A stretch of DNA of 32,000 bases. Source: Candidatus Heimdallarchaeota archaeon B3_Heim (GTDB lineage: Archaea; Asgardarchaeota; Heimdallarchaeia; Hodarchaeales; Hodarchaeaceae). The stretch covers positions 723-32,722 of the forward strand of contig NJBF01000040.1 of the NCBI GenBank assembly GCA_003144275.1. Direction: 5' to 3'. The notes under the pieces were generated by a model. It was given only the letters and a program-made list of their open reading frames with translations, ran no database searches and was not told the DNA's origin. The stretch's first letter is position 1. Each line of letters starts with the position of its first letter. Both the position numbers and the translations under genes were made by a program. Shown here one piece after another: positions 1,461 to 14,060 of the stretch.

Positions 1461-2510
1461 ATGGTGAAAAAATCTTTTCATAATTTTTTGGAACAGATCC
1501 AAAACACACAAAGACAGGCTATAGAGCAAGTTGAAAGGGTACAGTCTGATAGACTTCAAGATTTTGATTATCAAGAAGATCCTCCAAAAATGATTGCGAT
1601 CGACGGCTCGAATCGCTGGATCTGGAATAATCCCGACATTAATGCACGTATTGCAATTATTCGTACCGCTTATGTTGTTTATGAGTTTAATAGCGACTTT
1701 TCCCCTCCTATGCAGATTCTTAATCAAGGTTCTCAAGATGAAGCGGTTCTGATTGCACCTGATAACCCCAACATTCATACTTATGATCAAGATTTCCAGA
1801 AATTGCATACTGAAATACAGAGAATAATTGGTCGCAAAAATCCATTAGGGGAAACCCTCTCTTTGCTTCGTTCACTTGCTGAATTCAAAATGGTGGAGGA
1901 ATTGGCTAGTAATTATACGGAATCACTGATTGTGATGGATGGCGCTTTGACTTATGTACAGATAAAAGAATTTGAAGACACCATTAGGAATATTGTCAAG
2001 GCCTGCAAGAAAAATAACAATATTTTGATTGGAGTATCAAAAAGGAATATTACACGGTGGCTTGGATCCGAACTAACTGATGAAGCAGTTATGAGAGAAA
2101 TTGCCCGAAATGACCAAAAAATGATGTATATGGATATTCCAACGATACCCAAATCCCAACAGAAATTCCCATCTATTGGTAAGACTTATCTAGCGAAATT
2201 GCATGCAAAACCTGTTAAAACCTTTAGAGTGGATATTTATAACCCTTTAAATGTAAATGATAATAAAGTTCTGTCACATCTAGCATACTACTCACAGGTG
2301 AACACATTTCCTGGATATCCATTTCCCTTAGTAGATGCACATACTATTGCAGCCCTTTTAAGGCGTGTTCCGGATATGTATAATCACGAATTACTAGAAG
2401 TCGGCATTCAACTTGGTTTCACAGAAGATGAATTACTCCAATACATGATAACACATGAAAATATGGAAACTGATCCATTCCACAGATATTTAGACGATGC
2501 AACAAGATAA
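1461..2510 (+). CDS. nurA: NurA-family DNA double-strand-break repair nuclease
   Basis: Motifs AIDGS, VMDGAL, IGVSK, YLAKLH and GYPFPLVDAH; lies directly upstream of herA. Confidence 0.9.
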   Translation: MVKKSFHNFLEQIQNTQRQAIEQVERVQSDRLQDFDYQEDPPKMIAIDGSNRWIWNNPDINARIAIIRTAYVVYEFNSDFSPPMQILNQGSQDEAVLIAPDNPNIHTYDQDFQKLHTEIQRIIGRKNPLGETLSLLRSLAEFKMVEELASNYTESLIVMDGALTYVQIKEFEDTIRNIVKACKKNNNILIGVSKRNITRWLGSELTDEAVMREIARNDQKMMYMDIPTIPKSQQKFPSIGKTYLAKLHAKPVKTFRVDIYNPLNVNDNKVLSHLAYYSQVNTFPGYPFPLVDAHTIAALLRRVPDMYNHELLEVGIQLGFTEDELLQYMITHENMETDPFHRYLDDATR

Positions 2511-2537
2511 CATTCATTAAAATAAGAGGACAAAAAT

Positions 2538-4124
2538 ATGAAGAAAGATATTGAAGAAAAGATAGCTCTAGGTGAAGTTATTTCGGGTGCTGTAAGTGGT
2601 GCAATCCAATTAAAGCTCAGGACCGATAGTGAGGAAGTGAAAATAGGATTTCCTGCAGTCATTGAGGGGAAAAAATATGATTTCTTTTCCATTATTTCTG
2701 ATATTCAATTCCCAACAAGTAATGCGGTCACTATGTTAGCAAATGCAGAAAAACTGCGAAATACGATACCCTTGAATACCATCGACACTTCTAGGGGACG
2801 TACATTTTATAGTATTGCTGAGCTCCAGTGTGTTCAAATGATTGAGCAGACATCTGGCAAAGCTTTTGAATTTGAGACCCTTCCCCCTTATTTTTCATCA
2901 GGTCGATTAGCGAGTAAATCTGATGTGCAACGGGTATATCAAACAGACCTCCCTGAAAATACTCAATCAGTTGGAACCCTCAGAGGGGTAGAAGGATTTG
3001 AAATTCCAATTGATTTCAAAAAACTCGTAGAGGTACCGTTTGGGATTTTTGGTCGAACACACTCGGGAAAAACTTTTCTCAATAAGATAATCCTTGGAAA
3101 TATTATTAAAACTGAGGTATCGCAGATTCTGGTTTTTGATATGCAATCCGAATATGGGTGGCGATCCCGCGCTGATAATTCCCCTGGTCTGAAGTTTTTC
3201 TTTGAAGATCAAGTCACTCTATTAAGTCTTGACCCGAGCACAAGTAAAAGCCACGATGAGGATTTATTGATAGGAGAAAACGAAATAGAACCTGAGGATT
3301 TAATCGTAGCTTTCCAAGATCTTTCACCTACAATGATTGATGCAATTTATGAGATAAATCGAACGAAACCCTCATCACAAACTCTTATGGAAGGAATTCA
3401 TGCAGCACTGATAGCCGACCCCCCTCCTCAACGCATTAATCGTGGAACTTTGAACGCTTTGAGTAGACGTATCATGAGATTAGATCGCTTATCTTTTGTA
3501 GTGAAATCCGATAAGGGAAATTTGAATAACATACTAAAATATATACAATCAGGCCAGAATATTGTAATCGACTTTGGGAAGTTTGGAGCGGATTTCTTCG
3601 CGTATGTGTTTGTGGCAAACATAATTTCTCGTCGATTATATAAAAGCTATAGTGAAATGGTCGATATGAGTGATTATCCTAGACTAGTTGTCCTTCTTGA
3701 AGAGGCTCATAAGTTTTTAGACCCCAGAATCTCGAAAAATACCATTTTTGATAGGCTTGCACGAGAAATGCGTAAATTTAATCTAGTATTGGCAATGGTC
3801 GATCAGCGACCTTCGAGAATTGACCCTGAGATATTATCACAACTCGCAAATCGATTCATTCTTTCCTTAACAGATCCTAAAGATACCATTAATGCTTTAA
3901 CGGGCCCTGTTGATCCGGCGGCATGGCGAGCAATTGTACGTGCTATGCCTCCTCGTACTGTATTAATGTTTGGTGACGCAATCCGCGCACCGACGGCCAT
4001 GGATGTTCTGGAGTATAATGAAAGCACAATGACTCAAAAATGGCAAATTAGCAGTACGTCCCAGGAGTTACGTGATACTCTTGATTCCCTATCGGATGAT
4101 GATAAAAGAAACATGTTCAAGTGA
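2538..4124 (+). CDS. herA: HerA-family ATPase/translocase (HAS barrel plus DUF87 ATPase)
   Basis: N-terminal HAS-barrel-like region (LGEVISGAVSG), Walker A GRTHSGKT, FDMQSEYG, Walker B LLEEAHKF, arginine-finger region REMRKF and DQRPSRID.EILSQ. Confidence 0.93.
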   Translation: MKKDIEEKIALGEVISGAVSGAIQLKLRTDSEEVKIGFPAVIEGKKYDFFSIISDIQFPTSNAVTMLANAEKLRNTIPLNTIDTSRGRTFYSIAELQCVQMIEQTSGKAFEFETLPPYFSSGRLASKSDVQRVYQTDLPENTQSVGTLRGVEGFEIPIDFKKLVEVPFGIFGRTHSGKTFLNKIILGNIIKTEVSQILVFDMQSEYGWRSRADNSPGLKFFFEDQVTLLSLDPSTSKSHDEDLLIGENEIEPEDLIVAFQDLSPTMIDAIYEINRTKPSSQTLMEGIHAALIADPPPQRINRGTLNALSRRIMRLDRLSFVVKSDKGNLNNILKYIQSGQNIVIDFGKFGADFFAYVFVANIISRRLYKSYSEMVDMSDYPRLVVLLEEAHKFLDPRISKNTIFDRLAREMRKFNLVLAMVDQRPSRIDPEILSQLANRFILSLTDPKDTINALTGPVDPAAWRAIVRAMPPRTVLMFGDAIRAPTAMDVLEYNESTMTQKWQISSTSQELRDTLDSLSDDDKRNMFK

Positions 4125-4158
4125 TTAATCCTTATTTTTAATTCGAGATTTGATTAGA

Positions 4159-5382
4159 ATGGCAAAAATCGTCATAGTGGGAGATGTCCATATTGGAAAG
4201 CGATATGCATATCGTGTCAATTTGAAAACAGGCATTAGCGACCGTACTTTAGATTTTATTAATGCTCTTTCTAGAGTAGTTGCTTATGCAATCAATAATA
4301 AGGCCGATATATTTATCATTGCAGGGGATCTGTACGATCGCGTCACAGTCGGTCCAACACTTCTTCGACAAGTTAGAGAAACAATTTGGCAGCCTCTTAT
4401 TGAAGCAAAAATTCCGATAGTTTGTATTGGGGGAAATCATGACTCACCACAAATATTTGAGAAAGGATCACCATTGGGAGAAATTTCTCTTTTTCCGAAT
4501 AGTATTGTAGCACGATCTCCACAAACCGCTATAGTACACACTATGACTACAAAGGAAGAAATTGGTTTTCTTCTCCTACCATATCTAACGGCATCCCAAG
4601 TTGTGAAGTTTGTAGAAGAACGTCTTGGTAAATCTGTCGAGAAGGAAAGACAGATGGTTTTAAGTCAAGAATATCTTAAATACTTTATAGAAAATGAATT
4701 AAAACAACTTCCCACTAAGACAAATCTTCTTGTTGGTCATTACTTCTTTCAAGGATCCAAAATTAATATTATTCCATACCCAGATCATCTTCCTCATGAA
4801 TTCAAATTTAAGAAAGATATGCTACCATTAGATAAAATTGACTTAGCAATATTCGGTCATATTCATACCACTCAAACTTTACATGGTGGAAAAGTTTTAG
4901 TTCCTGGATCATTGGAACGAGTAGATTTTGGTGAGGTGAACGAGGATAAAGGATTTTATGTATTCGAAACTACAACAGGAAAGCTAGAATTTATTACAAA
5001 TAATCCTCGTTCGTTAGTTAAACAGTTTATTGAAGTACCAAGGGTAGAGGATCCTACAAATTACATAATTCAAAATTTACCAAGAACATTAGAAGAGTCT
5101 ATTGTCCGTATAATTATAAAAATATCCCCCGAATTAAAGAAGAAAGTACGTCTGCCACGTATTCATCAAGCGTTAGATTCAACATTTCATTTTGAATTGT
5201 TCTGGGATACTTCTATAACTCAACGTGAAATAGTTCTCACTGATTTTGTTCTAGATCCATTAGTCTTATTTAATGACTTTATTACGAGAAAACTTGATCA
5301 AGACCCCAATTTGGAACAATTACGTCAAAAAGGATTAGAAATTCTTGATCGAGCACTCGCTCAGGTGGAAGAAAAGCTATGA
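4159..5382 (+). CDS. mre11: Mre11/SbcD metallophosphoesterase nuclease (alternative TTG start at 4150)
   Basis: All five phosphoesterase motifs: GDVHIG, AGDLYD, GGNHDS, VGH and FGHIH; also PGSLERVDFGE. The stop overlaps the rad50 start (ATGA). Confidence 0.93.
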   Translation: MAKIVIVGDVHIGKRYAYRVNLKTGISDRTLDFINALSRVVAYAINNKADIFIIAGDLYDRVTVGPTLLRQVRETIWQPLIEAKIPIVCIGGNHDSPQIFEKGSPLGEISLFPNSIVARSPQTAIVHTMTTKEEIGFLLLPYLTASQVVKFVEERLGKSVEKERQMVLSQEYLKYFIENELKQLPTKTNLLVGHYFFQGSKINIIPYPDHLPHEFKFKKDMLPLDKIDLAIFGHIHTTQTLHGGKVLVPGSLERVDFGEVNEDKGFYVFETTTGKLEFITNNPRSLVKQFIEVPRVEDPTNYIIQNLPRTLEESIVRIIIKISPELKKKVRLPRIHQALDSTFHFELFWDTSITQREIVLTDFVLDPLVLFNDFITRKLDQDPNLEQLRQKGLEILDRALAQVEEKL

Positions 5383-7754
5383 GCGATACAGCCCATCACT
5401 CTTTCGGGGGAGGTTTTGATCTAATTTCTCTAGAAATATATCGCTTCATGAATTATCTGGGGAAACCAGTTAAATTTGCTTTCAATGCTCCCAATATCGT
5501 CATCTCTGGTCCAACCGGTTCAGGAAAAACAACAATTTTAGATGCCCTAACATTTGCTCTATTCGGTAGAAGCTCCCGATTGGATCTAACTATTGTTAAA
5601 ACAGAAGATATATGTGGGAATAATGGAAGAGTAACTTGTGAATTCCATATAGACAAAATCTATTACAAAATTATCCGTGGGAGGGACAGTAAGGGCAAAA
5701 GCTTTTTAGAACTGTTTATCAACAATGAACGGATTAATGGGAAAATTCCTGAGTTAAATGAGAAAATTCGGTCTACCATCCTTGGAATGAATTATGCTGC
5801 TTTTGTAAATTCGACTATCATTCGCCAAGATGAAATGAAATCACTGGGATCTAAATCCTCAACAGAACGATTAAAAACATTACAAAACCTATTTCGACTG
5901 GATATTTTTAATAAAGCTATACAAGACACTCAAGAACAACTAATGACAATAAATGGCTTGAAAAATAAAGTAGAGGGTGAATTGCAAACAAATAAGAAGA
6001 ATTTTTCCTCTAAAATACTTTTAGAAAAGAAAGTAAATCAATTAGTTCCTCAATTACAGAAATTGAAGAGTGAGGAAAAGAAGTCATTCAAGATAATCGG
6101 TGAAAAGGAACTAGAGAAGAATGAGAAACAAGAATTACATGAAAAATTCCAAATCACTTTAGATAGTATGAAAAACTCTGAAAAACAACTTATGAAGCTT
6201 GAAAATTCAGAGAGGAAATCAGAAGAAGAATTAAAAAAATATATGAAATTAAAAAATAATTCTATGGTTTTAGAGAAGCAAATTGAAGTAATTCGTAATC
6301 ATGATGAGGAAATAAGATCTCTTGAAAGCAAGAAAAAAGAGTATACATTTATAAAATCTGGGATAGAAAAATTGATCCAGAGACGAAGGAAAGATGAATT
6401 ACGACTCATAAAAGATACAGAAAAGAAGAATAATCTGAAAGCAGAAACAGTAAAGCGAATTGCGAACCTTACGACCGATATCGATCATAAAAAGGCTTTT
6501 CAAATCTTGCAACAGGAGGGAAGATTAGGGGAACGAATTCAAAGAATTTCTCTTGAAAAATCATGGAAATTACCCGATAAACTCATTCAGGAATTACTAC
6601 AGGAACAATTAAACGCAAGATCTGATCTCAAAGAGTTATTAACGGAGAAAACAAAGATCAATATCGACTCTTTTAGATTATCTGAAATCCAAGACACGGA
6701 AAACCAGTTAATAGCGGAAATCGAGAAATTAAATGAACGATTAAGCGAGTTAAAGGAATCTTCAGAGAAGGAAATCCAAGAGGAGAAAAACAAGCAAAAG
6801 AAGATTGGATTTTCTCCAGAAATACAGAAACATCTTGATATGTTGAAAAACTCACAAATTACTAATGAAAAGATAAAAAAAGAGTATACTACAGCAAAAC
6901 ATAACTTTGAGTCAATAATTGATCCTACAAGCAAAATAAATACTCTACAAAATCAAATCAAAGTGATTAAAGAGGAGAGAGTAAGATTTCGAGAGGAACT
7001 TAAAGATTATCGACAATTTCAAAAGGAGTTTGAATTTCTTAAAACTGACTTGAAAGAAAAAAAAGAAAGTGTCGAAAAATTACAGATCCAATGTGTTCGT
7101 ATGGATCAGGATATTAAGAACCTGCAATTTAATATTCTAGAACTTCAAAAATTAAAGCCAGAAATTAAAAAACTTGAGAAAAAGTTGGACAAGTTTATTC
7201 AGGAAGAAAACGTTTTAATTAAACTGAAGAATGAGGTGTTTCATATAAGGGGCGCTCCTTTCTATGCAATTAACAAGATACTACCTCATCTTGGTAAGCG
7301 TGCTTCCCTAATTTTGTCAGATTTAACAAGCCGAAAATTAACTAGTGTTCAATTAGAAAGAATTGATAAAGGAAAACAAGGTTTGGGATTCAACATTAAC
7401 ATCCAAACTCCTCAAGGACCTCGGGATATTTCAACCTTTTCTGGTGGTGAACGTACTCAAATTAATGCGGCATTAAGATTAGCGATCAGTGAAGAACTTT
7501 CCTATTTTGGTGGAGAAAGAGCTCAAGAATCAGGAACAAAGAAGACACTATTTATTGATGAGGGAGATTTGGGATCCCTTGATACTATGGAAGCTCAACA
7601 AGCATTCGTCAAGAAGCTCTTTGAATTAAGTAATAAATTTAAGATCATATTAATAACCCACATCACAGAAATTGCGGATCAATTTCCACATTCCATTCAG
7701 ATTACACGTGATACTTACGGGAGATCTATGAAAAATGCTGCGAGTGATACTTAG
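5379..7754 (+). CDS. rad50: Rad50/SbcC SMC-like ATPase lacking a CXXC zinc hook
   Basis: Walker A GPTGSGKT, Q-loop IIRQDE, about 440 aa of coiled coil, signature FSGGE, Walker B/D-loop LFIDEGDLGSLD and H-loop LITH. Confidence 0.92.
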   Translation: MSDTAHHSFGGGFDLISLEIYRFMNYLGKPVKFAFNAPNIVISGPTGSGKTTILDALTFALFGRSSRLDLTIVKTEDICGNNGRVTCEFHIDKIYYKIIRGRDSKGKSFLELFINNERINGKIPELNEKIRSTILGMNYAAFVNSTIIRQDEMKSLGSKSSTERLKTLQNLFRLDIFNKAIQDTQEQLMTINGLKNKVEGELQTNKKNFSSKILLEKKVNQLVPQLQKLKSEEKKSFKIIGEKELEKNEKQELHEKFQITLDSMKNSEKQLMKLENSERKSEEELKKYMKLKNNSMVLEKQIEVIRNHDEEIRSLESKKKEYTFIKSGIEKLIQRRRKDELRLIKDTEKKNNLKAETVKRIANLTTDIDHKKAFQILQQEGRLGERIQRISLEKSWKLPDKLIQELLQEQLNARSDLKELLTEKTKINIDSFRLSEIQDTENQLIAEIEKLNERLSELKESSEKEIQEEKNKQKKIGFSPEIQKHLDMLKNSQITNEKIKKEYTTAKHNFESIIDPTSKINTLQNQIKVIKEERVRFREELKDYRQFQKEFEFLKTDLKEKKESVEKLQIQCVRMDQDIKNLQFNILELQKLKPEIKKLEKKLDKFIQEENVLIKLKNEVFHIRGAPFYAINKILPHLGKRASLILSDLTSRKLTSVQLERIDKGKQGLGFNINIQTPQGPRDISTFSGGERTQINAALRLAISEELSYFGGERAQESGTKKTLFIDEGDLGSLDTMEAQQAFVKKLFELSNKFKIILITHITEIADQFPHSIQITRDTYGRSMKNAASDT

Positions 7755-10018
7755 TGATCTCTGAATTCATTAAGAAAATCAAGAATACATCTTATTATAA
7801 AGACCAAATTATATTCCAAAGGAGTATTCCTGAGAAAGACCCCCAATTTGGATCGCTTGCCTTCCAATTAGCTCCAGAACTTGAGCAATGGCTGCGAGAG
7901 AACGAATGGAAGCTTTATTCTCACCAAGCCGATGCCCTGAATATTATAAATAAAGGAAAAAATGTTGTTGTAACCACTTCAACAGCATCGGGTAAAACAT
8001 TAATTTTTTCATTGGCGGTAGCTCAAGCAATCACTCAAAGAGAAAATTCAACAGCATTATTCTTATATCCTATGAAAGCCCTAGCTAATGATCAGCTCAG
8101 TAAAATGGAAGAACTGAACGCAGTGTTGGAGGGGAGACTGCGACCTTTTATTTATGATGGAGACACACCATCCGAAAGACGACCAGCGATTCGAAATACG
8201 GCCCGGGTTATTATCTCAAATCCATATGCCTTCCATCGCTATTTAGACTGGCATTCAAAGTGGGAACGATTTTTTCGAAATCTAAGATTTATAGTTATTG
8301 ATGAGGCACATACCTACCGAGGAGTGTTTGGTTCAAATGTAGCACAACTTATTCGGAGATTACAACGGATCTGTGAATTTTATCGTTCCCAACCACAATT
8401 TATTCTCTCTTCAGCTACAATAAACAATCCAAGAGAATTTGCTGAGAAGCTTATTGGTACTCCTCTTCATATCATCACGAACGATGGTTCTCAGCAAGGT
8501 TCAAAGGAATTAGTTATATGGAACCCTCCCTTTGTCGATCAGTTTAATTCAAAACGAAGATCACCACATCAAGAGACACGTGATTTACTTTTTAGCCATT
8601 TAAGTGAACATTATCAGACGCTTTGCTTCACCCTTTCAAGAAAAATGTCGGAAATCATTGCAGTCTGGGCGCGTCAAGATCTCGAGAAGCACGAATTAGA
8701 TCCTGAACAAGTAATGGCTTATCGAGCAGGGTATCGTCCCCTAGAACGAAGGAGAATTGAGAGCCAATTAAGGAATCGGGAAATATCTGCAGTCGTTAGC
8801 ACAAATGCTCTTGAAGTAGGTATTGATATTGGCAATCTAGATGCAGTGCTTCTAAGTGGATTCCCAGGTACAATAATTTCAACTTGGCAACAAATCGGAC
8901 GTGTCGGTAGAACTACTCGTCCTTCTCTTGCCACTCTAATTCTCTTTGAAGACGCTTATCAGCAGTTCTTAGGGCGTCATCCAGAATATTTCCTAGAGAA
9001 GACCCCTGAGAATGCTATAATTGATTTAAACAATCCATATATCGTAAAAGGACACATTTTGTGTGCAGCTTCAGAACTACCTATTAAAAAAGCTGAAATC
9101 AGCAAAATATGGGGAGAAGTTGGGATGAAAGTTATCAAAGAGTTATTAAATCAGGATGTACTAAAACTAGTTCCTGCAGGTATAGTTCCCAAGTCAATTA
9201 AGCATCCTTCACAACAAGTCAGTTTAAATTCAGCATTTACAGAGTCTATTGAGATTATAGTGAGTGAAAAGTTGTTAGAAACGATGACAACGGCCCAAGC
9301 ATATCGTGAAGCGCATGAGGGAGCGATTTTAATCCATCAAGGGGAGAAATATCTTATTGAGACTATTGATTGGGAGAATAAGAAGGCTTATGCATCTCCC
9401 CATCGGGTTGATTATTATACAGAAGCCATTTCTATAAGTGATGTAGAAATTATTGCCCAAGAAAACGAAAAGGATATTGGGTACTTATTGACCTTTGGTG
9501 AAGTTAAAGTAACTGAGTTCTATCATTCCTACAGAAAAAAAACATACGATGAAGTGCTTGAAATAGTACCATTCGACCTTCCCCCACTGGAATTTAATAC
9601 GAAAGCTGTGTGGATTAATCTTCCTTCATCTATAGTAACTAAAGTAAAAGCGGAGAAGAAAGATTTTTCTGGGGGAATTCATGCATTAGAGCATGCAACG
9701 ATCGCTTTATCTCCCTTATTTGCTCTTTGTGATCGCTGGGATATCGGAGGCACGTCTTACCCTAATTTTCCAGATGATGGAACAGCTAAAATCTTTATTT
9801 ACGATGGATTCCCGGGGGGCATTGGAATTGCAGAACAATTATTCGAAAAGTGGGAAGTCCTCTTATCAAATGTGCTACAGCTAATCCAAGAATGTCCTTG
9901 TAGTGAGGGATGTCCTTCTTGCATTCAATCGCCTAAATGTGGTAATGATAACTTTCCTCTAAGTAAAGAAGTGGCAATTGACCTTTTGAAAGAATTAAAA
10001 TTGCTTTCAAAGAACTGA
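7754..10018 (+). CDS. DEAH-box SF2 helicase with C-terminal DUF1998 Zn-binding domain (MrfA/SftH/Hrq1 family)
   Basis: LYSHQ (Q motif), TSTASGKT, YPMKALANDQ, YDGDTP, IDEAHTYRGVFGS, SSATINNP, YRAGY, STNALEVGIDIG, QQIGRVGR; C-terminal HALEHA, YDGFPGGIG and CPCSEGCPSCIQSPKC. The GTG start overlaps the rad50 TAG. Confidence 0.93.
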   Translation: MISEFIKKIKNTSYYKDQIIFQRSIPEKDPQFGSLAFQLAPELEQWLRENEWKLYSHQADALNIINKGKNVVVTTSTASGKTLIFSLAVAQAITQRENSTALFLYPMKALANDQLSKMEELNAVLEGRLRPFIYDGDTPSERRPAIRNTARVIISNPYAFHRYLDWHSKWERFFRNLRFIVIDEAHTYRGVFGSNVAQLIRRLQRICEFYRSQPQFILSSATINNPREFAEKLIGTPLHIITNDGSQQGSKELVIWNPPFVDQFNSKRRSPHQETRDLLFSHLSEHYQTLCFTLSRKMSEIIAVWARQDLEKHELDPEQVMAYRAGYRPLERRRIESQLRNREISAVVSTNALEVGIDIGNLDAVLLSGFPGTIISTWQQIGRVGRTTRPSLATLILFEDAYQQFLGRHPEYFLEKTPENAIIDLNNPYIVKGHILCAASELPIKKAEISKIWGEVGMKVIKELLNQDVLKLVPAGIVPKSIKHPSQQVSLNSAFTESIEIIVSEKLLETMTTAQAYREAHEGAILIHQGEKYLIETIDWENKKAYASPHRVDYYTEAISISDVEIIAQENEKDIGYLLTFGEVKVTEFYHSYRKKTYDEVLEIVPFDLPPLEFNTKAVWINLPSSIVTKVKAEKKDFSGGIHALEHATIALSPLFALCDRWDIGGTSYPNFPDDGTAKIFIYDGFPGGIGIAEQLFEKWEVLLSNVLQLIQECPCSEGCPSCIQSPKCGNDNFPLSKEVAIDLLKELKLLSKN

Positions 10019-10346: not shown

Positions 10347-13300
10347 TTATGAGTTGAATGTTTTTCCACAACTACTACAAAACTTTGCTTCTAGAGGCAT
10401 TCGAACGCCACATTGGACACAATATTTGTGCAATGGAATCTGGGGTTTTGGGGTGATTTCTAGGGATTGCTTACGTTGATAAGAGTACGAATAGGGGTCA
10501 TATCGTTTCCGTTCATTTCGACGAATAAAGTATATAATTGCAATCGTAACTCCCAGCGCAAATACGACTGCGAGAATGAGAAGGGGAATATCAATGAAGC
10601 TAGGATTTGATATTTGAAAGAAGATTGGTTCGAGAATTGAATTCCCTTGAGCGTCACGAACATAGAAAAGAAGAAGAAAATATTCCCCCTGAATCTTTAC
10701 TTCTAGATCTTCCTCATCTGGTAAAGGTATAGGGAGATCAGGTACAGTAAATATACCTGTATGCACGCTACTATCTAAAGAGGATGGATTAAGAGTAAAA
10801 CTGTCAAAAACAATTCGATCAGCGGCAAAGAGGTAATAATGGATAAGCTGGTAATAAACTTCAAATTTTACTGAGTTTTCATCGTATAAGCTAAGCGAAA
10901 TCTCTATCTCTTCTGCAGGTTTCCATTTAGGGACATCTTGAAAAGTTAAGATTTGCAGATAATCATCAACAGTACGATCCCCAATAAAGCTCTGAGACCC
11001 TAGAATTACTGGTTCTTCGTCAGGAACATAAAAATAGTCACGATCTGTTTTTATTAACATCGGTTGTTTTTGCTCATTTTCCCACCATACTTGGATTTCA
11101 TAAGTGTAATATCCTGGATGCAATCCTCCTGGAACTAACCAACTCGTCAATTTTAAGGTCGAATTATAATTGTAAAATTTCTCTTCAATCATGTAACTAC
11201 TAGAGAAAATCTCTGAATCCAATGGAGGAATTATAACGTCCAGTGAATCTTCATATTGGCTGGAGATGATAAGAATTGCTGAAATATTGGAACTTGAGGT
11301 ATGCGTTACGGCCACGTCTAACCCCCTATCAAGAAGAAGATCATCTGAATTATCCCACCAAGAGGGAGTAGGTATTTCAAGAGACGTTATAGGGTGGACT
11401 TCAATTTCTTCAACAGTCGGAATTTGAGAAGTAGAGAGAGGTACATCTGACGTAACATTTAATGTTCCGAGAATAACATCCCCCACAAGGTTTATTCTCA
11501 CATGTGTTCCATCAACACCAGCTAACGAAAAGTCAAGATAGGCAAAAGTAAGTGTACCATTATATGGGACATTAATATCATTGATTTGTGATCCATTTTC
11601 GAGTTCGATTGTAAGTGAGAAATTCTGTTCTAAAGATGGGTAAATGGCAACCTCCATTGCCAAAGAATCTGGAGCTACTTGAACATTGAATGTGGTATGA
11701 TTTGGAGATAACCAATCCAAAACATTGGACAGAAAGATCTGTCCTGAGGTACTTCGGAGATAAGATGAATAAATCCACTCTTCACTGCCTAAAAGAAGCA
11801 CCTTTCCCTTCCCCTCTGGCTCCAAACCTGCCAGTACAAGTTGGGTGTCGACTTGAGCATAATGCGCTAGTGACTGGTCAGTTTTATTTCCGTAAAAAGC
11901 AGTTCCCCCCAATCTTGGAAGATTTTCTACTCCAACAAAGAATGGATTGTCACTACTTATATCTAAATCATCTTTTGATAGAAAATATGGTACTGGAATT
12001 CTATCTTGTCCATCATCGATGTATTCAACTAGCTCTGTTCTATCAGAAAGGTTGAGAGGTAGATTCAAGGCACTAATCAATTTTTCATATGGATCGAGAG
12101 TGTAATATGGAAGGAAAGATGTTACTAATAGAATTGAACCATTATTTTTGTGAAAATCGATAATACAGTCAATTTCACGATAAGTAAGGGGATCTTCAAG
12201 ATCGGTTAGGACTAAGATTCCATTTTGGGTGAGATTTGAGCTTAGTATTGGGGAATTATAGTCAATTATATCATATCGAGAACTTTGGAATAGTTGATTC
12301 AAGTAGTGATAATTATAGAAATATGAATCATCTTTTCCAGTATGGTACGTATCCCAATAAATTTTCTCATCAGGTAATTGTACCTCAAATGCTATGGGTA
12401 ATTCAAAGGTCTGATCTTCAAAAGAATAACGAATAAACCCTTGATAGGAGTCTGGGGGAGCATTAAAGGGAATATCGATAGCAAGAACCTTTTCAAAATA
12501 AGTGGCAGAAGATATAATCGTAGGAGAGAGATCAAAATCGATAAATGGAATTAGATCATTACTTACTTCCCATGTAATTGTTCCACCCGTTCCAGTTACA
12601 AAGGGCAGAGTAATTTCAACGTGATCACCAGGAAATGAAACTGGTTGAAAAAACTCTATTTCATTCCCGTTTGCTTCTGGTACTGTGGAAATTAGCTCAT
12701 AACCTGAACTTAGTTTCGAATTTTTTAACATGTCAGCTGCCATCCCTACATTTACCAGTCCACTTCCTTGGGTGTAAATAGATTCACTACCCCCTAGATC
12801 TGAGGCTGATTCCTGTAAGGCTGCACGTATGGCATAAGGAGAAGCATCTGGAAACTGATCCAAAAGCAATGCTACTGCTCCACTTACAACTGGTGCTGCC
12901 ATCGATGTCCCTGACAATACAATATAATCAGAAAGGTAAACATCCACTAATGCATTATAAGCCAAGTCAATTACCCCTCCTGATGCAAGAGGGCCAATGA
13001 TTTGGTATCCTGGAGCCACAATATCTGGATCTGGTCGAAAATCATAGGTAGGTCCTTGACTGGAAAAAGAAACGACATTTTGACTCCCATTTGTCGCACC
13101 TACTGTTAACGCTTTTTTTGCAGAAGCAGGTGTATTAATTGTCATGAAAGGAATAGAACCATCTGCTTCATTCCCTGCAGCCGTTACAACAGTAATACCA
13201 TGACCCACAACAGAATTTACTGCAAGAGCTAGAATATCCTCTGACTCCCAAGGAGCAGTAAGTCCAAATCCTAAAGAAATTGAGATTATATCAACATTTA

Positions 13301-14060
13301 ATTCAACAGCCCTATCTAAAGCGGCAATTACTGCAGAGCTGGAGGCACTCCCAAACATATCAGCCACTTTGAGATTTACTAACTCAGAACCAGTAGCTAC
13401 TCCTGGGAAAGGCCCTCCACCCGCTGCAATCCCCGCAACATGAGTACCATGCCCATGTAGATCAGAAATGTCCTCTTCAGAAGAATATCCATAATCTGAT
13501 GTTACAAATGATTCTTGATATCCGACGTTGACAAAATCTGAGTGTGAAGTATCTAATCCCGAATCTAGTATAGCTATTTTTACACCCGAGCCATCATATC
13601 CAGAAATTGTTAATGGAGATGCATTAATAATATCACTAGGGAGTTCATAATCCTGTTGTATATCTTGAATATACTTCGGGGTTAGTTCCTCTAATGAAGG
13701 TAATACTGTCATCAGTTTTGAGGATTGTACACGAGAGAATATTTGTCCAAAATCATTTTTCAGTATAGATAGATCATTTTGTGATAAAGAAACCTTACCA
13801 ATATGTAAATTTTCAAAGAATTTTAGAGAGGAATTACCATTCTGCTCAAAATGTTCTTTTAAAAGCTCCTTTTCTTCTGGGTGGTATGTAAATAAATAAA
13901 CAGAAGTACTCTCGATATTTGAAGACATATTAACAGAGTTATCCGTTGATATTTGGAGCGTTTCCCCTCCTAAAGCGACCTTCGGAATCGGGAGGATCAT
14001 TAAAAGAATTAAAACTATTTTACTTGCAAGATAAAAGGTTCTATGTTTTGCTAGATTCAA
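10347..14060 (-). CDS. Membrane-anchored S8 subtilase with a class-I-GATase-like domain, C-terminal TM helix and zinc-ribbon tail (site-1 protease-like architecture)
   Basis: Hydrophobic N-terminal signal; catalytic triad ILDSG, HGHGTHVAG and GTSMAAP; oxyanion AAGNE; SSQGP; KIYWDTYH domain; TM IPLLILAVVFALGVTIAIIYFI; CVQCG...AKFCSSCG. TTG start with GAGG upstream. Confidence 0.92.
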   Translation of the reverse strand: MNLAKHRTFYLASKIVLILLMILPIPKVALGGETLQISTDNSVNMSSNIESTSVYLFTYHPEEKELLKEHFEQNGNSSLKFFENLHIGKVSLSQNDLSILKNDFGQIFSRVQSSKLMTVLPSLEELTPKYIQDIQQDYELPSDIINASPLTISGYDGSGVKIAILDSGLDTSHSDFVNVGYQESFVTSDYGYSSEEDISDLHGHGTHVAGIAAGGGPFPGVATGSELVNLKVADMFGSASSSAVIAALDRAVELNVDIISISLGFGLTAPWESEDILALAVNSVVGHGITVVTAAGNEADGSIPFMTINTPASAKKALTVGATNGSQNVVSFSSQGPTYDFRPDPDIVAPGYQIIGPLASGGVIDLAYNALVDVYLSDYIVLSGTSMAAPVVSGAVALLLDQFPDASPYAIRAALQESASDLGGSESIYTQGSGLVNVGMAADMLKNSKLSSGYELISTVPEANGNEIEFFQPVSFPGDHVEITLPFVTGTGGTITWEVSNDLIPFIDFDLSPTIISSATYFEKVLAIDIPFNAPPDSYQGFIRYSFEDQTFELPIAFEVQLPDEKIYWDTYHTGKDDSYFYNYHYLNQLFQSSRYDIIDYNSPILSSNLTQNGILVLTDLEDPLTYREIDCIIDFHKNNGSILLVTSFLPYYTLDPYEKLISALNLPLNLSDRTELVEYIDDGQDRIPVPYFLSKDDLDISSDNPFFVGVENLPRLGGTAFYGNKTDQSLAHYAQVDTQLVLAGLEPEGKGKVLLLGSEEWIYSSYLRSTSGQIFLSNVLDWLSPNHTTFNVQVAPDSLAMEVAIYPSLEQNFSLTIELENGSQINDINVPYNGTLTFAYLDFSLAGVDGTHVRINLVGDVILGTLNVTSDVPLSTSQIPTVEEIEVHPITSLEIPTPSWWDNSDDLLLDRGLDVAVTHTSSSNISAILIISSQYEDSLDVIIPPLDSEIFSSSYMIEEKFYNYNSTLKLTSWLVPGGLHPGYYTYEIQVWWENEQKQPMLIKTDRDYFYVPDEEPVILGSQSFIGDRTVDDYLQILTFQDVPKWKPAEEIEISLSLYDENSVKFEVYYQLIHYYLFAADRIVFDSFTLNPSSLDSSVHTGIFTVPDLPIPLPDEEDLEVKIQGEYFLLLFYVRDAQGNSILEPIFFQISNPSFIDIPLLILAVVFALGVTIAIIYFIRRNERKRYDPYSYSYQRKQSLEITPKPQIPLHKYCVQCGVRMPLEAKFCSSCGKTFNS

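What the first reader, a model, noticed from the sequence alone, without database searches (positions are those of the whole stretch)
6471..6683. Rad50/SbcC with no zinc hook: the coiled-coil apex is a Cys-free segment
Seen: the protein has only three cysteines (about residues 79, 87 and one in the distal coil) and no CXXC. The coiled-coil midpoint (about residue 398) reads EGRLGERIQRISLEKSWKLPDKLIQELL, flanked by short non-coil segments (LTTDIDHKKAF, KINIDSFRLSEI). Established: Rad50, SbcC and T4 gp46 dimerise at the apex via a CXXC zinc hook, while SMCs use a globular hinge. Inference: there is a different, metal-free apex (helical hairpin or new dimer interface) on a short arm, while all ATPase motifs remain intact.
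Basis: partly seen in the sequence, partly recalled or inferred. Interest (0 to 1): 0.7.

Follow-up and report, generated by a model that had tools for sequence, protein, structure and literature searches.

The report
Rad50 with helical apex, no hook
The only Mre11-partnered Rad50 of this Asgard (Hodarchaeales-type) archaeon has no zinc hook; instead it has a strongly conserved 75-residue helical hairpin at the tip of its arm that is predicted to pair two Rad50 molecules without cysteines, a design shared by about 200 uncultured-archaeon relatives and not found described in the searchable literature.

Summary
Observation confirmed. The 791-aa Rad50 (window 5379-7754, +) has Cys only at 79, 87 and 572 and no CXXC. 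This is not an assembly error: all 199 retrieved family members (28-97% identity; Asgard, Thermoplasmata, Methanocellales, Hydrothermarchaeota MAGs) lack any CXXC. More distant Rad50/SbcC homologues almost all carry CPxC at the midpoint.

Its mean top-residue frequency is 0.59, against 0.38-0.40 for the arms and 0.65-0.67 for the ATPase heads. G381, R389, I390, E393, W396 and F432 are invariant.

AlphaFold models it with confidence (pLDDT 92) as a two-helix hairpin set between two breaks in the arm. A two-copy prediction passed its controls (ipSAE 0.61 against a best control of 0.06), with the invariant residues in a parallel helix-helix interface.

The gene always follows Mre11 inside a NurA/HerA cluster and is the only Mre11 partner in this 94%-complete genome.

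Best reading: a cysteine-free, four-helix-bundle-type dimerisation module replaces the zinc hook. Dimerisation and absence of metal are predicted, not shown.

The scan has noted hook-less Rad50 before: one untested note on this family in another genome, and a different, hydrophobic-hairpin type in Thermofilum. I found no paper describing it. Classed as a new variant of a known kind.

The parts
5379..7754 (+). rad50 gene, 791 aa (P0001). Its start overlaps the mre11 stop (ATGA) and its last base is the first base of the helicase gene
   Evidence: ORF list and translation. Pfam AAA_23, AAA_29 and SMC_N. Best solved relatives by sequence are M. jannaschii and T. maritima Rad50 and E. coli SbcC. 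Best structural match is C. thermophilum Rad50, 7zr1.
5379..5903 (+). N-terminal ATPase half (residues 1-175) with Walker A GPTGSGKT and the Q-loop
   Evidence: Invariant G44, T46, G47, G49, K50, R149, Q150 in 83 sequences. AF2 beta/alpha head.
5904..6464 (+). Ascending coiled-coil strand (residues 176-362), with a break at 299-308
   Evidence: AF2 helices 176-298 and 309-362. Low conservation, 0.38.
6465..6485 (+). Junction 1 of the apex (residues 363-369, L-x-T-x-I-D motif), non-helical
   Evidence: AF2 loop 363-369. L364 at 92% and T366 at 84% conserved.
6486..6557 (+). Apex helix alpha1 (residues 370-393), the predicted core of the homodimer interface. Carries A373, F374, L377, E380, G381, L383, E385, R386, R389, I390, E393
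   Evidence: Invariant or at least 90% conserved. i-with-i contacts 377, 378, 381, 382, 385, 389 and 393 between the two copies.
6558..6575 (+). Tip loop (residues 394-399) with invariant W396
   Evidence: AF2 loop. W396 is invariant and lies in the predicted interface.
6576..6650 (+). Apex helix alpha2 (residues 400-424), less conserved and probably the outer helix of the bundle
   Evidence: AF2 helix. Only E409 and A413 are well conserved.
6651..6689 (+). Junction 2 (residues 425-437, K-I-N-x-D-S-F-x-L-S-E-I motif), the return into the descending arm
   Evidence: I427, D430, E436 at least 90% conserved and F432 invariant. 429 and 432 lie in the predicted interface.
6690..7238 (+). Descending coiled-coil strand (residues 438-620), with breaks at 477-479 and 512-516 (conserved D-P-T)
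   Evidence: AF2. D515 at least 90% conserved.
7239..7751 (+). C-terminal ATPase half (residues 621-791) with signature FSGGE, Walker B LFIDEGD, D-loop and H-loop
   Evidence: Invariant S688, G689, G690, E691, D727, E728, D730, D735; H761 at least 90% conserved.
4150..5382 (+). mre11 (410 aa), the nuclease partner and the only Mre11 in the genome
   Evidence: Pfam Metallophos. NCBIfam SbcD/Mre11 hits. Single match in the genome. Precedes the hook-less rad50 in 75 of the 80 loci; the other five are cut at or inside rad50 (L023, L027, L079) or have the Mre11 frame within a read-through Rad50 frame (L090, L091).
1461..4124 (+). nurA (1461-2510) and herA (2538-4124), the end-resection partners in the same operon
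   Evidence: Pfam NurA and DUF87/HerA. Conserved with the hook-less rad50 in the loci.
7754..10018 (+). Hrq1/MrfA-type DEAD-box helicase with an MZB zinc domain, fifth gene of the operon
   Evidence: Pfam DEAD, Helicase_C, WHD_HRQ1, MZB. Follows rad50 in all 16 Asgard-type loci, L012-L027.

Best explanation
This is the genuine Mre11-partner Rad50 of a nurA-herA-mre11-rad50 end-resection operon. In it the Zn(Cys)4 hook has been replaced by a cysteine-free helical module of about 75 residues (363-437). Each arm ends in a conserved junction (L-x-T-x-I-D on the way up, K-I-N-x-D-S-F-x-L-S-E-I on the way down). The junctions frame a two-helix hairpin, alpha1 370-393 and alpha2 400-424, with invariant W396 in the tip loop.

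Proposed mechanism: two hairpins pack about a two-fold axis that runs along the helices. The alpha1 helices lie side by side in parallel, approaching closely at invariant G381. Contacts come from F374, L377 and L383 and from a belt of invariant charged residues (E380, E385, R386, R389, E393). The result is a four-helix-bundle dimer of the kind seen in the dimerisation domain of histidine kinases.

Both arms leave the same end of the bundle, so the module would do the hook's job: hold two Rad50 arms together at the end far from the Mre11-ATPase head, giving a closed M2R2 ring or rod.

Shown: absence of CXXC, the conservation, the operon context, and uniqueness in the genome. Predicted: the fold and the homodimer. 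Inferred: no metal is bound, and the function equals that of the hook.
For: 1. No CXXC in the protein or in any of 199 relatives, while 75 of 100 more distant long homologues have mid-chain CXXC. The apex profile and CXXC are mutually exclusive.

2. The apex is a conservation island: 0.59 against at most 0.41 for any other 75-residue window of the arms, and close to the heads at 0.65-0.67. It has six invariant residues across 83 sequences of 28-73% identity, none of them Cys or His.

3. AF2 gives a confident helix-loop-helix between two arm breaks, in the full-length model (pLDDT 79.6) and in the isolated apex (pLDDT 92, pTM 0.66).

4. Two copies of residues 320-480: ipSAE 0.61/0.61/0.58 against a best control of 0.06. 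That mark was reached by 20 of 30 proteins solved as pairs of one chain and by 1 of 23 solved as single chains. The runs share at least 48% of their contacts and partner pLDDT is at least 64. The interface is 370, 374, 377-386, 389, 393, 396-399, 402, 429, 432, with i-with-i pairs. No solved structure or Pfam family matches the apex sequence, so a pass from memory is unlikely.

5. Predicted interface residues are more conserved than the rest of the apex (0.72 against 0.54, Mann-Whitney p = 0.004).

6. Context: the gene follows Mre11 in 75 of the 80 loci (the other five are cut at or inside rad50, or have the Mre11 frame within a read-through Rad50 frame), with NurA and HerA in most where the contig reaches. 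There is one Mre11 in this genome.

7. Replacing the hook with an unrelated stable dimeriser (the MukB hinge) keeps Rad50 functional in fission yeast (PMC6969161). A non-zinc dimeriser is therefore mechanistically sufficient.
Against: Dimerisation rests on a predictor that was given my own alignment. The agreement between interface and conservation is therefore not independent, and the calibration allows up to about 19 in 100 single chains to pass. No coordinates were available, so the bundle geometry and the direction of the arms are inferred from contact lists and secondary structure only. The invariant residues are largely charged (R389, E393, E385, R386), which would suit a partner-protein or DNA-binding surface equally well. 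Carboxylate-bound metal (Mg, Ca) cannot be excluded by sequence. No family member comes from a cultured organism among those listed, so there are no experimental data at all.
Confidence: 0.65

Rival explanations
1. The conserved apex is a docking site for another macromolecule rather than a Rad50-Rad50 dimeriser. Candidates are a protein of the resection machinery (HerA, NurA, or in Asgards the translationally coupled Hrq1/MrfA-type helicase) or DNA, as at SMC hinges.
For: The invariant residues are mostly charged or aromatic surface types: R386, R389, E385, E393, W396. The gene is always embedded in a multi-protein operon. In Asgard-type loci a helicase gene is welded to rad50.
Against: The helicase is absent from the Thermoplasmata/Methanocellales-type loci, which conserve the same apex residues. 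The homodimer prediction passed with the same residues at the interface. Docking and dimerisation are not mutually exclusive.
Confidence: 0.15
2. The apex is only an intramolecular cap that closes the antiparallel arm. These Rad50s are joined solely through the ATPase heads and the Mre11 dimer, so the hook's tethering function has simply been lost.
For: The monomer folds confidently on its own. Up to about 19 in 100 single chains may pass the complex test.
Against: A simple cap does not need six invariant and twelve nearly invariant residues at head-like conservation across phyla, including solvent-facing charges on alpha1. Other parts of the arm drift freely. Loss of hook dimerisation disables Rad50 function in the studied systems: a CXXC-to-GG mutant gave hook-open complexes, and a replacement dimeriser restored function (PMC6969161).
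Confidence: 0.12
3. The protein is not the functional Rad50 but a diverged paralogue with another role (for example defence), and the real hook-bearing Rad50 lies elsewhere in the genome.
For: A second Rad50-like ATPase with a CPTC hook exists on contig C4. P0001 scores far below the NCBIfam Rad50 equivalog cut-offs (82.6 bits against 700).
Against: The C4 protein has no Mre11 neighbour. It sits among AAA+, AAA_15/21 and Schlafen-like genes and carries an extra C-terminal domain. The genome has a single Mre11, and it overlaps the start of the hook-less rad50. The NurA-HerA-Mre11-Rad50 context is conserved in most of the 80 loci where the contig reaches. The genome is 94% complete, so a missing second system cannot be fully excluded.
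Confidence: 0.05

Closest known systems
Canonical archaeal Rad50 of the herA-mre11-rad50-nurA cluster (Pyrococcus furiosus, Methanocaldococcus jannaschii; PDB 3AUX, 3AV0, 5DNY, 1II8, 6ZFF)
   Same: ABC-ATPase head split by a long antiparallel coiled coil. Mre11 partner encoded immediately upstream, with NurA and HerA in the cluster. These are the best sequence matches among solved structures.
   Different: No CXXC and no PF04423 match. The apex is a 75-residue conserved helical hairpin. Arms are shorter (about 185 residues per strand). It scores far below the curated Rad50 equivalog cut-offs.
Engineered Rad50-MukB-hinge chimera of fission yeast (Tatebe et al. 2020, PMC6969161)
   Same: The zinc hook is replaced by an unrelated, metal-free constitutive dimerisation module at the arm tip, and Rad50 function is retained.
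   Different: That is a laboratory construct using a globular hinge. Here the replacement is natural, purely helical, and conserved across at least two archaeal phyla.
Homodimeric helical-hairpin four-helix bundles such as the histidine-kinase DHp domain (for example 7N0E chain A)
   Same: The two-helix hairpin (model residues 35-94, protein residues 369-428) superposes at Z 9.4, rmsd 1.7 A over 60 residues. The predicted parallel alpha1-alpha1' pairing about an axis along the helices is the DHp arrangement (DHp geometry from general knowledge).
   Different: No sequence relationship. The Z-score lies within the range expected for any helical hairpin (note). This is an analogy of architecture, not family membership.
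RecN (bacterial SMC-like repair ATPase), whose arms dimerise at the tip without metal (from my own knowledge of the D. radiodurans RecN structures; not tested here)
   Same: An SMC/Rad50-superfamily ATPase whose short coiled-coil arms join at the tip through helices, not through a hook or a globular hinge.
   Different: RecN has no Mre11 partner. TIGR00634 (recN) was not among the NCBIfam hits for P0001. The apex sequence is unrelated.
Hook-less Rad50 with a hydrophobic, membrane-like hairpin apex
   Same: Mre11-linked archaeal Rad50 lacking CXXC, with a two-helix hairpin at the tip.
   Different: The hairpin here is hydrophilic (Kyte-Doolittle mean -0.7 to -0.9; the maximum 19-residue window in the whole protein is 0.95). 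It carries a different, charged motif, so it is a separate solution to the same problem.
Archaea-specific SMC-related proteins (ASRP: ClsN/Sph; PMC9389158)
   Same: Rad50-like heads, a coiled coil, and an archaeal distribution that includes Heimdallarchaeota.
   Different: The vast majority of ASRPs carry a zinc hook and are not Mre11-linked. P0001 scores 18.8 bits against a cut-off of 300 on NF045487. The C4 paralogue resembles ASRP more (84.7 bits).

Membership tests
Rad50/SbcC (Mre11/SbcD-partner ABC ATPase) | Walker A, Q-loop, ABC signature, Walker B, D-loop and H-loop in a split head | tested here: met
   All motifs are present in P0001. All are invariant in 83 relatives except the H-loop His761, which is at least 90% conserved. 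Pfam AAA_23, AAA_29 and SMC_N.
Rad50/SbcC (Mre11/SbcD-partner ABC ATPase) | Long antiparallel coiled coil between the two head halves | tested here: met
   AF2 helices 176-362 and 429-620. Best structural match is the Rad50 chain of 7zr1, E 1e-21.
Rad50/SbcC (Mre11/SbcD-partner ABC ATPase) | Encoded next to, and working with, an Mre11/SbcD nuclease | tested here: met
   mre11 ends 4 nt inside rad50. Adjacency holds in 75 of the 80 loci; the other five are cut at or inside rad50, or have the Mre11 frame within a read-through Rad50 frame. It is the only Mre11 in the genome. Physical interaction was not tested.
Rad50/SbcC (Mre11/SbcD-partner ABC ATPase) | CXXC zinc hook at the coiled-coil apex (PF04423) | tested here: not met
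   No CXXC. No PF04423 match in this gene. 0 of 199 family members have CXXC.
Rad50/SbcC (Mre11/SbcD-partner ABC ATPase) | Score over the curated NCBIfam Rad50 or SbcC model cut-offs | tested here: not met
   TIGR00618 101 bits against 478. NF003034 82.6 bits against 700. The other Rad50 equivalogs score lower.
SMC proper | Globular hinge domain at the apex | tested here: not met
   The apex is 75 residues and all-helical. TIGR02169 scores 22.9 bits against 729.
ASRP (ClsN/Sph) | NF045487 match and zinc hook | tested here: not met
   18.8 bits against a cut-off of 300. No CXXC.
Hook-less Rad50 with membrane-type hairpin (earlier scan notes) | Hydrophobic two-helix hairpin at the apex | tested here: not met
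   Kyte-Doolittle mean is -0.88 and -0.79 for the two apex helices. No 19-residue window in the protein exceeds 0.95.
Homodimeric four-helix-bundle dimerisers (DHp-like) | Two hairpins forming a parallel-axis four-helix bundle | tested here: inconclusive
   The prediction gives i-with-i alpha1 contacts and passes its controls. Structural matches are generic. No coordinates or experiment.

The most novel reading that the evidence does not exclude
A natural, cysteine-free four-helix-bundle 'hook substitute' defines a whole subfamily of Mre11-partner Rad50s in Hodarchaeales-type Asgard archaea, Thermoplasmata, Methanocellales and Hydrothermarchaeota. If so, the supposedly universal zinc hook is dispensable in nature, provided another constitutive dimeriser sits at the arm tip. 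Sister Asgard families keep a CPTC hook, so the whole Mre11-Rad50 module of this lineage would be a distinct, anciently diverged or exchanged version.
Probability: 0.6. Interest if true: 0.75.

Novelty: new variant of a known kind. Interest (0 to 1): 0.66.

Why it matters
The zinc hook is presented in the field's literature as the characteristic apex of Rad50 (for example the introduction of PMC6969161). What it contributes beyond holding two arms together is still debated: dynamic opening, zinc sensing, or rod against ring geometry. A large natural clade that swaps the hook for a small, metal-free helical module is a ready-made comparison. If these complexes resect DNA ends normally, then constitutive dimerisation is the only essential job of the hook. 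If they behave differently, the difference isolates what zinc coordination adds.

The module is small (about 75 residues), is modelled with high confidence, and could be grafted into model Rad50s as the MukB hinge was. It occurs in the Asgard lineage whose public records are labelled Hodarchaeales. From my own knowledge, not tested here, that group is often placed nearest to eukaryotes, whose Rad50 has the hook. This is relevant to reconstructing the repair machinery of the archaeal ancestor of eukaryotes. On the practical side, these proteins are currently annotated only as 'AAA family ATPase', 'SMC family ATPase' or 'exonuclease SbcC'.

Tried and rejected
1. Assembly or local-loss artefact: rejected. 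There is a 97%-identical copy in an independent MAG and 0 of 199 relatives have CXXC.

2. A hidden hook elsewhere in the protein: rejected. It has three Cys in all, none paired as CXXC. Cys79 and Cys87 lie in the head and are absent from the Thermoplasmata-type members.

3. Alternative Zn site with His: no His or Cys is conserved in the apex; H370 is only 41% conserved.

4. Membrane hairpin as in the Thermofilum type: rejected on hydropathy.

5. The C4 CPTC protein as the true Rad50: rejected. It has no Mre11 neighbour and a defence-like neighbourhood.

6. The search for related loci with the apex-only alignment A2 failed because no stretch was conserved enough to back-translate. The full-length alignment was used instead.

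7. Fold searches with the apex model gave only generic helical hairpins: Foldseek E at least 0.1 and TM at most 0.47; VIA Z at most 10.6, below the roughly 13 needed for helical models. No known fold can be assigned, and none is excluded.

8. Profile search of PDB sequences and Pfam with the apex: nothing meaningful.

9. Literature: seven searches found no description. The 'hinge-less SMC' of marine Actinobacteria (PMC12153180) is an unrelated case.

10. Search for a cultured member: none among the 120 relatives listed or the 80 genomes.

11. Direction of evolution (gain against transfer): not resolved. The Asgard-type and euryarchaeal-type members are sister clades when rooted on other hook-less groups, in a quick tree with long-branch warnings.
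Full report
WHAT IS THERE. The finding lies in a 791-aa ORF (window 5379-7754, + strand). It is the fourth gene of a tightly packed operon: nurA 1461-2510, herA 2538-4124, mre11 4150-5382, rad50, then an Hrq1/MrfA-type helicase 7754-10018 (Pfam). The closest database proteins are labelled Candidatus Hodarchaeales, Hodarchaeota or Heimdallarchaeota, so the organism is an Asgard archaeon. The genome is 3.95 Mb in 103 contigs and 94% complete.

OBSERVATION. All ATPase motifs are present and are invariant in the family alignment, apart from the H-loop His761 at 90% or more. The Pfam zinc-hook model does not match this gene.

NOT AN ARTEFACT, AND NOT LOCAL.
- A word-indexed search and an exhaustive HMMER search gave 245 relatives.
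- Every full-length hit above about 130 bits lacks CXXC. Below that score nearly every hit has CPxC at the chain midpoint.
- I built a profile of the apex (A2) and scored all long homologues. 98 have the apex and no CXXC, 75 have mid-chain CXXC and no apex, and 25 have neither. The two features are mutually exclusive.
- A second search seeded with a Methanocellales member added 101 proteins. All match the apex profile and none has CXXC.
- A scan of one genome per prokaryotic species found 130 genomes. The 80 listed are labelled Thermoplasmata/Thermoplasmatota (35), Methanobacteriota (16), Methanocellales (9), Asgard phyla (15), Hydrothermarchaeota (2), Bathyarchaeota (1) and unassigned (2, one of them titled Candidatus Aminicenantes bacterium and probably mis-binned).
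- One locus (L012) is a 97%-identical copy from an independent MAG.
- All sources are MAGs. I saw no cultured representative.

IT IS THE MRE11 PARTNER.
- In 75 of the 80 loci the hook-less gene directly follows an Mre11 gene. The other five are cut at or inside rad50 (L023, L027, L079) or have the Mre11 frame within a read-through Rad50 frame (L090, L091).
- Asgard-type loci have the order NurA-HerA-Mre11-Rad50-helicase. Thermoplasmata/Methanocellales-type loci have Mre11-Rad50-NurA-HerA.
- The window's genome holds one Mre11 only (tblastn with three divergent Asgard Mre11s).
- A second Rad50-like ATPase with a CPTC hook exists on contig C4 (838 aa). It has no Mre11 neighbour, carries an extra C-terminal domain and sits among AAA+, AAA_15/21 and Schlafen-like genes. 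It scores better on the ASRP model than P0001 does.
- Solved relatives by sequence are M. jannaschii, T. maritima and P. furiosus Rad50 and E. coli SbcC. The best structural match of the full-length model is a Rad50 chain (7zr1).

THE APEX.
- In the 83-sequence alignment A1 (28-73% identity to the query) the arms are almost free to vary, but residues 363-437 are an island of conservation.
- Invariant: G381, R389, I390, E393, W396, F432.
- At least 90% conserved: L364, A373, F374, L377, E380, L383, E385, R386, E409, I427, D430, E436.
- Mean top-residue frequency is 0.59 for the apex. It is 0.38 and 0.40 for the two arm strands, and the best other 75-residue arm window reaches 0.41. The heads are at 0.65 and 0.67.
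- The consensus is L-x-T-x-I-D ... A-F-x-L-L-x-x-E-G-x-L-x-E-R-I-x-R-I-x-x-E-x-x-W ... K-I-N-x-D-S-F-x-L-S-E-I.
- No Cys or His is conserved.
- The segment is hydrophilic (Kyte-Doolittle -0.7), so it is not the membrane-like hairpin that earlier notes of this scan reported for Thermofilum-type hook-less Rad50.
- AlphaFold2 with A1 gives arm helices 176-298 and 309-362, a loop 363-369, helix 370-393, a loop 394-399, helix 400-424, a loop 425-428, then the descending arm (mean pLDDT 79.6).
- The isolated segment 335-465 gives the same four helices at pLDDT 92, pTM 0.66.
- No Pfam family and no PDB sequence matches the apex. Fold searches return only generic helical hairpins. Among these, the two apex helices superpose on dimerising hairpins such as a histidine-kinase DHp domain (7n0e_A, Z 9.4, 60 residues, rmsd 1.7 A). 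That is an architectural analogy, not a relationship.

DOES IT DIMERISE?
- Two copies of residues 320-480, with the family alignment, scored ipSAE 0.61, 0.61 and 0.58. The best of three controls scored 0.06.
- That mark was reached by 20 of 30 proteins solved as pairs of one chain and by 1 of 23 solved as single chains. The runs share at least 48% of their contacts and the partner's pLDDT is at least 64.
- The tool's verdict is that the model supports binding; it does not show it.
- The confident interface is 370, 374, 377-386, 389, 393, 396-399, 402, 429, 432. It contains five of the six invariant residues.
- The tightest pairs are residue i with residue i (377, 378, 381, 382, 385, 389, 393). 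This means the two alpha1 helices lie parallel about a two-fold axis that runs along them.
- Interface residues are more conserved than the rest of the apex (0.72 against 0.54, p = 0.004). The predictor saw the alignment, so this is not an independent test.
- The base of the hairpin (374, 429, 432) and its tip (396-402) both lie on the axis. I therefore infer that both arms leave the same end of a four-helix bundle, as arms leave a hook or a hinge. I had no coordinates, so this geometry is inference.

WHY THE MECHANISM IS PLAUSIBLE. High-speed AFM and genetics showed that the hook acts as a constitutive dimeriser. A CXXC-to-GG mutant gave hook-open complexes instead of rings. Replacing the hook with the MukB hinge gave fission yeast whose Rad50 the authors judged physiologically interchangeable with wild type, and the cells were fertile (PMC6969161). 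A natural replacement by another stable dimeriser is therefore sufficient in principle.

EVOLUTIONARY SETTING.
- On a head-only tree of 137 homologues the apex family is one side of a branch (SH-aLRT 90). It sits inside a larger hook-less clade (55 rows, support 98) with two other groups of about 720 aa. These also lack CXXC, have different centres, and lie next to Mre11, with NurA nearby in two of the three contexts and HerA in one.
- Within a 301-genome sample of the phylum, the apex was found in 22 genomes including the window's own. Excluding the window's genome, that is 17 of 20 in its own family, single genomes of two other families, and two genomes of a fourth. In three of these other-family genomes the match lies in an open frame of about 1190 aa, the length of the Mre11-Rad50 fusion proteins seen. 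It was not found in the other families of the same class that were searched.
- Those relatives have hook-bearing proteins. A roughly 940-aa CPTC Rad50 follows a distant Mre11 in the sister family of the same order, and a roughly 970-aa CPTC Rad50 occurs in another family. Proteins of about 720 aa with C-[DE]-x-C occur in a third, next to an Mre11-like gene in three of the ten loci checked.
- The nearest hook-bearing sequences overall are roughly 700-aa proteins labelled Njordarchaeales, Korarchaeota and Bathyarchaeia.
- Rooted on the other hook-less groups, the Asgard-type and euryarchaeal-type members are sister clades (a quick tree with long-branch warnings).
- The patchy distribution fits either ancient divergence with loss or transfer of the whole cluster. 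I cannot decide between them.

RIVALS. There are three: a docking surface for a partner or DNA; a mere intramolecular cap; a non-Rad50 paralogue. They are weighed in the Rival explanations section. The last is the weakest, because of the single Mre11 and the conserved operon.

PRIOR KNOWLEDGE. Seven full-text searches found no description of a hook-less Mre11-linked Rad50. A 2026 review of NurA that covers Asgard homologues does not contain the word 'hook'. The ASRP paper treats the zinc hook as shared by Rad50 and ASRP. Within this scan there is a first-reader note on a 789-aa relative in another genome that makes the same observation (e1-5455354). Several follow-ups describe a different, hydrophobic-hairpin kind of hook-less Rad50. 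Hook-lessness as such has therefore been seen by the scan before. This particular conserved hydrophilic module and its predicted dimer have not been described in the papers I could search.

VERDICT. Observation confirmed and interpretation supported. The object is a Rad50 in function and context that fails one defining feature of the family, the zinc hook, and replaces it with a new conserved helical module. I class it as a new variant of a known kind, with interest 0.66.

Noticed in passing
G000 contig C4:93703-96219 (= L011:9704-12220, +): A second Rad50-like ATPase (838 aa) with a CPTC hook at 337-340 and an extra C-terminal domain of about 200 aa. It has no Mre11 neighbour and is flanked by an AAA+ protein (525 aa), an AAA_15/AAA_21 ATPase and a Schlafen/AlbA_2 protein. 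It is probably a defence-type or ASRP-like paralogue (NF045487 84.7 bits, below cut-off).
   Followed up: partly
window 7754-10018 (+): An Hrq1/MrfA-type helicase (DEAD, Helicase_C, WHD_HRQ1, MZB zinc domain) whose start overlaps the rad50 stop. The same gene follows rad50 in all 16 Asgard-type loci but in none of the Thermoplasmata/Methanocellales-type loci.
   Followed up: partly
window 6273-6302 and 6912-6929 (residues 299-308 and 512-517): Matching breaks in the two arm strands in the AF2 model, with a nearly invariant D515 in a D-P-T motif on the descending strand and a nearly invariant L315 on the ascending one. This is a conserved elbow or joint about one third of the way down from the apex.
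   Followed up: no
P0079, P0080, P0124, P0125, P0127; genomes G165, G228, G243: Single-chain Mre11-Rad50 fusion proteins of 1169-1207 aa. P0079 and P0080 carry Metallophos plus Rad50 head domains by precomputed Pfam, and P0124, P0125 and P0127 match P0001 only from about residue 417-435 onward. None has CXXC. In G165, G228 and G243 the apex profile matches inside open frames of about 1190 aa. The fusions themselves were outside the length window of the tree and were not checked one by one against the apex profile.
   Followed up: no
L093, L094, L095/L096 (proteins P0128, P0143, P0148 and relatives): Two further groups of Rad50 of about 720 aa without CXXC and without the apex module described here. 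They also lie next to Mre11 (with NurA, and in one case HerA, nearby) and are sister to the family studied here. One group has a conserved G-G-I-S-I-D-E-Y-T-E-I-A-like centre. So there are several independent-looking hook substitutes.
   Followed up: partly
window 5613-5641 (residues 79-87): A Cys pair spaced by seven residues in the N-terminal head is conserved in most Asgard-type members (positions 74/82 to 79/87; one subgroup keeps only the second Cys). It is absent from the Thermoplasmata/Methanocellales-type members. Its role is unknown and it is not at the apex.
   Followed up: no
L037 (WVZL01000043.1): A 6-kb contig binned as 'Candidatus Aminicenantes bacterium' carries the archaeal-type Mre11, hook-less Rad50, NurA, HerA cluster. 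It is probably a mis-binned archaeal contig rather than a bacterial member.
   Followed up: no
window 6587-6934 (-): A 115-aa antisense ORF inside the rad50 coiled-coil region. The sense strand here is very A-rich (AT skew 0.247 for 6001-8000) because of Lys/Glu codons, so this is most likely a chance frame.
   Followed up: no
window 10347-14060 (-): A 1237-aa S8 subtilase with a C-terminal zinc-ribbon, just downstream of the repair operon on the opposite strand.
   Followed up: no
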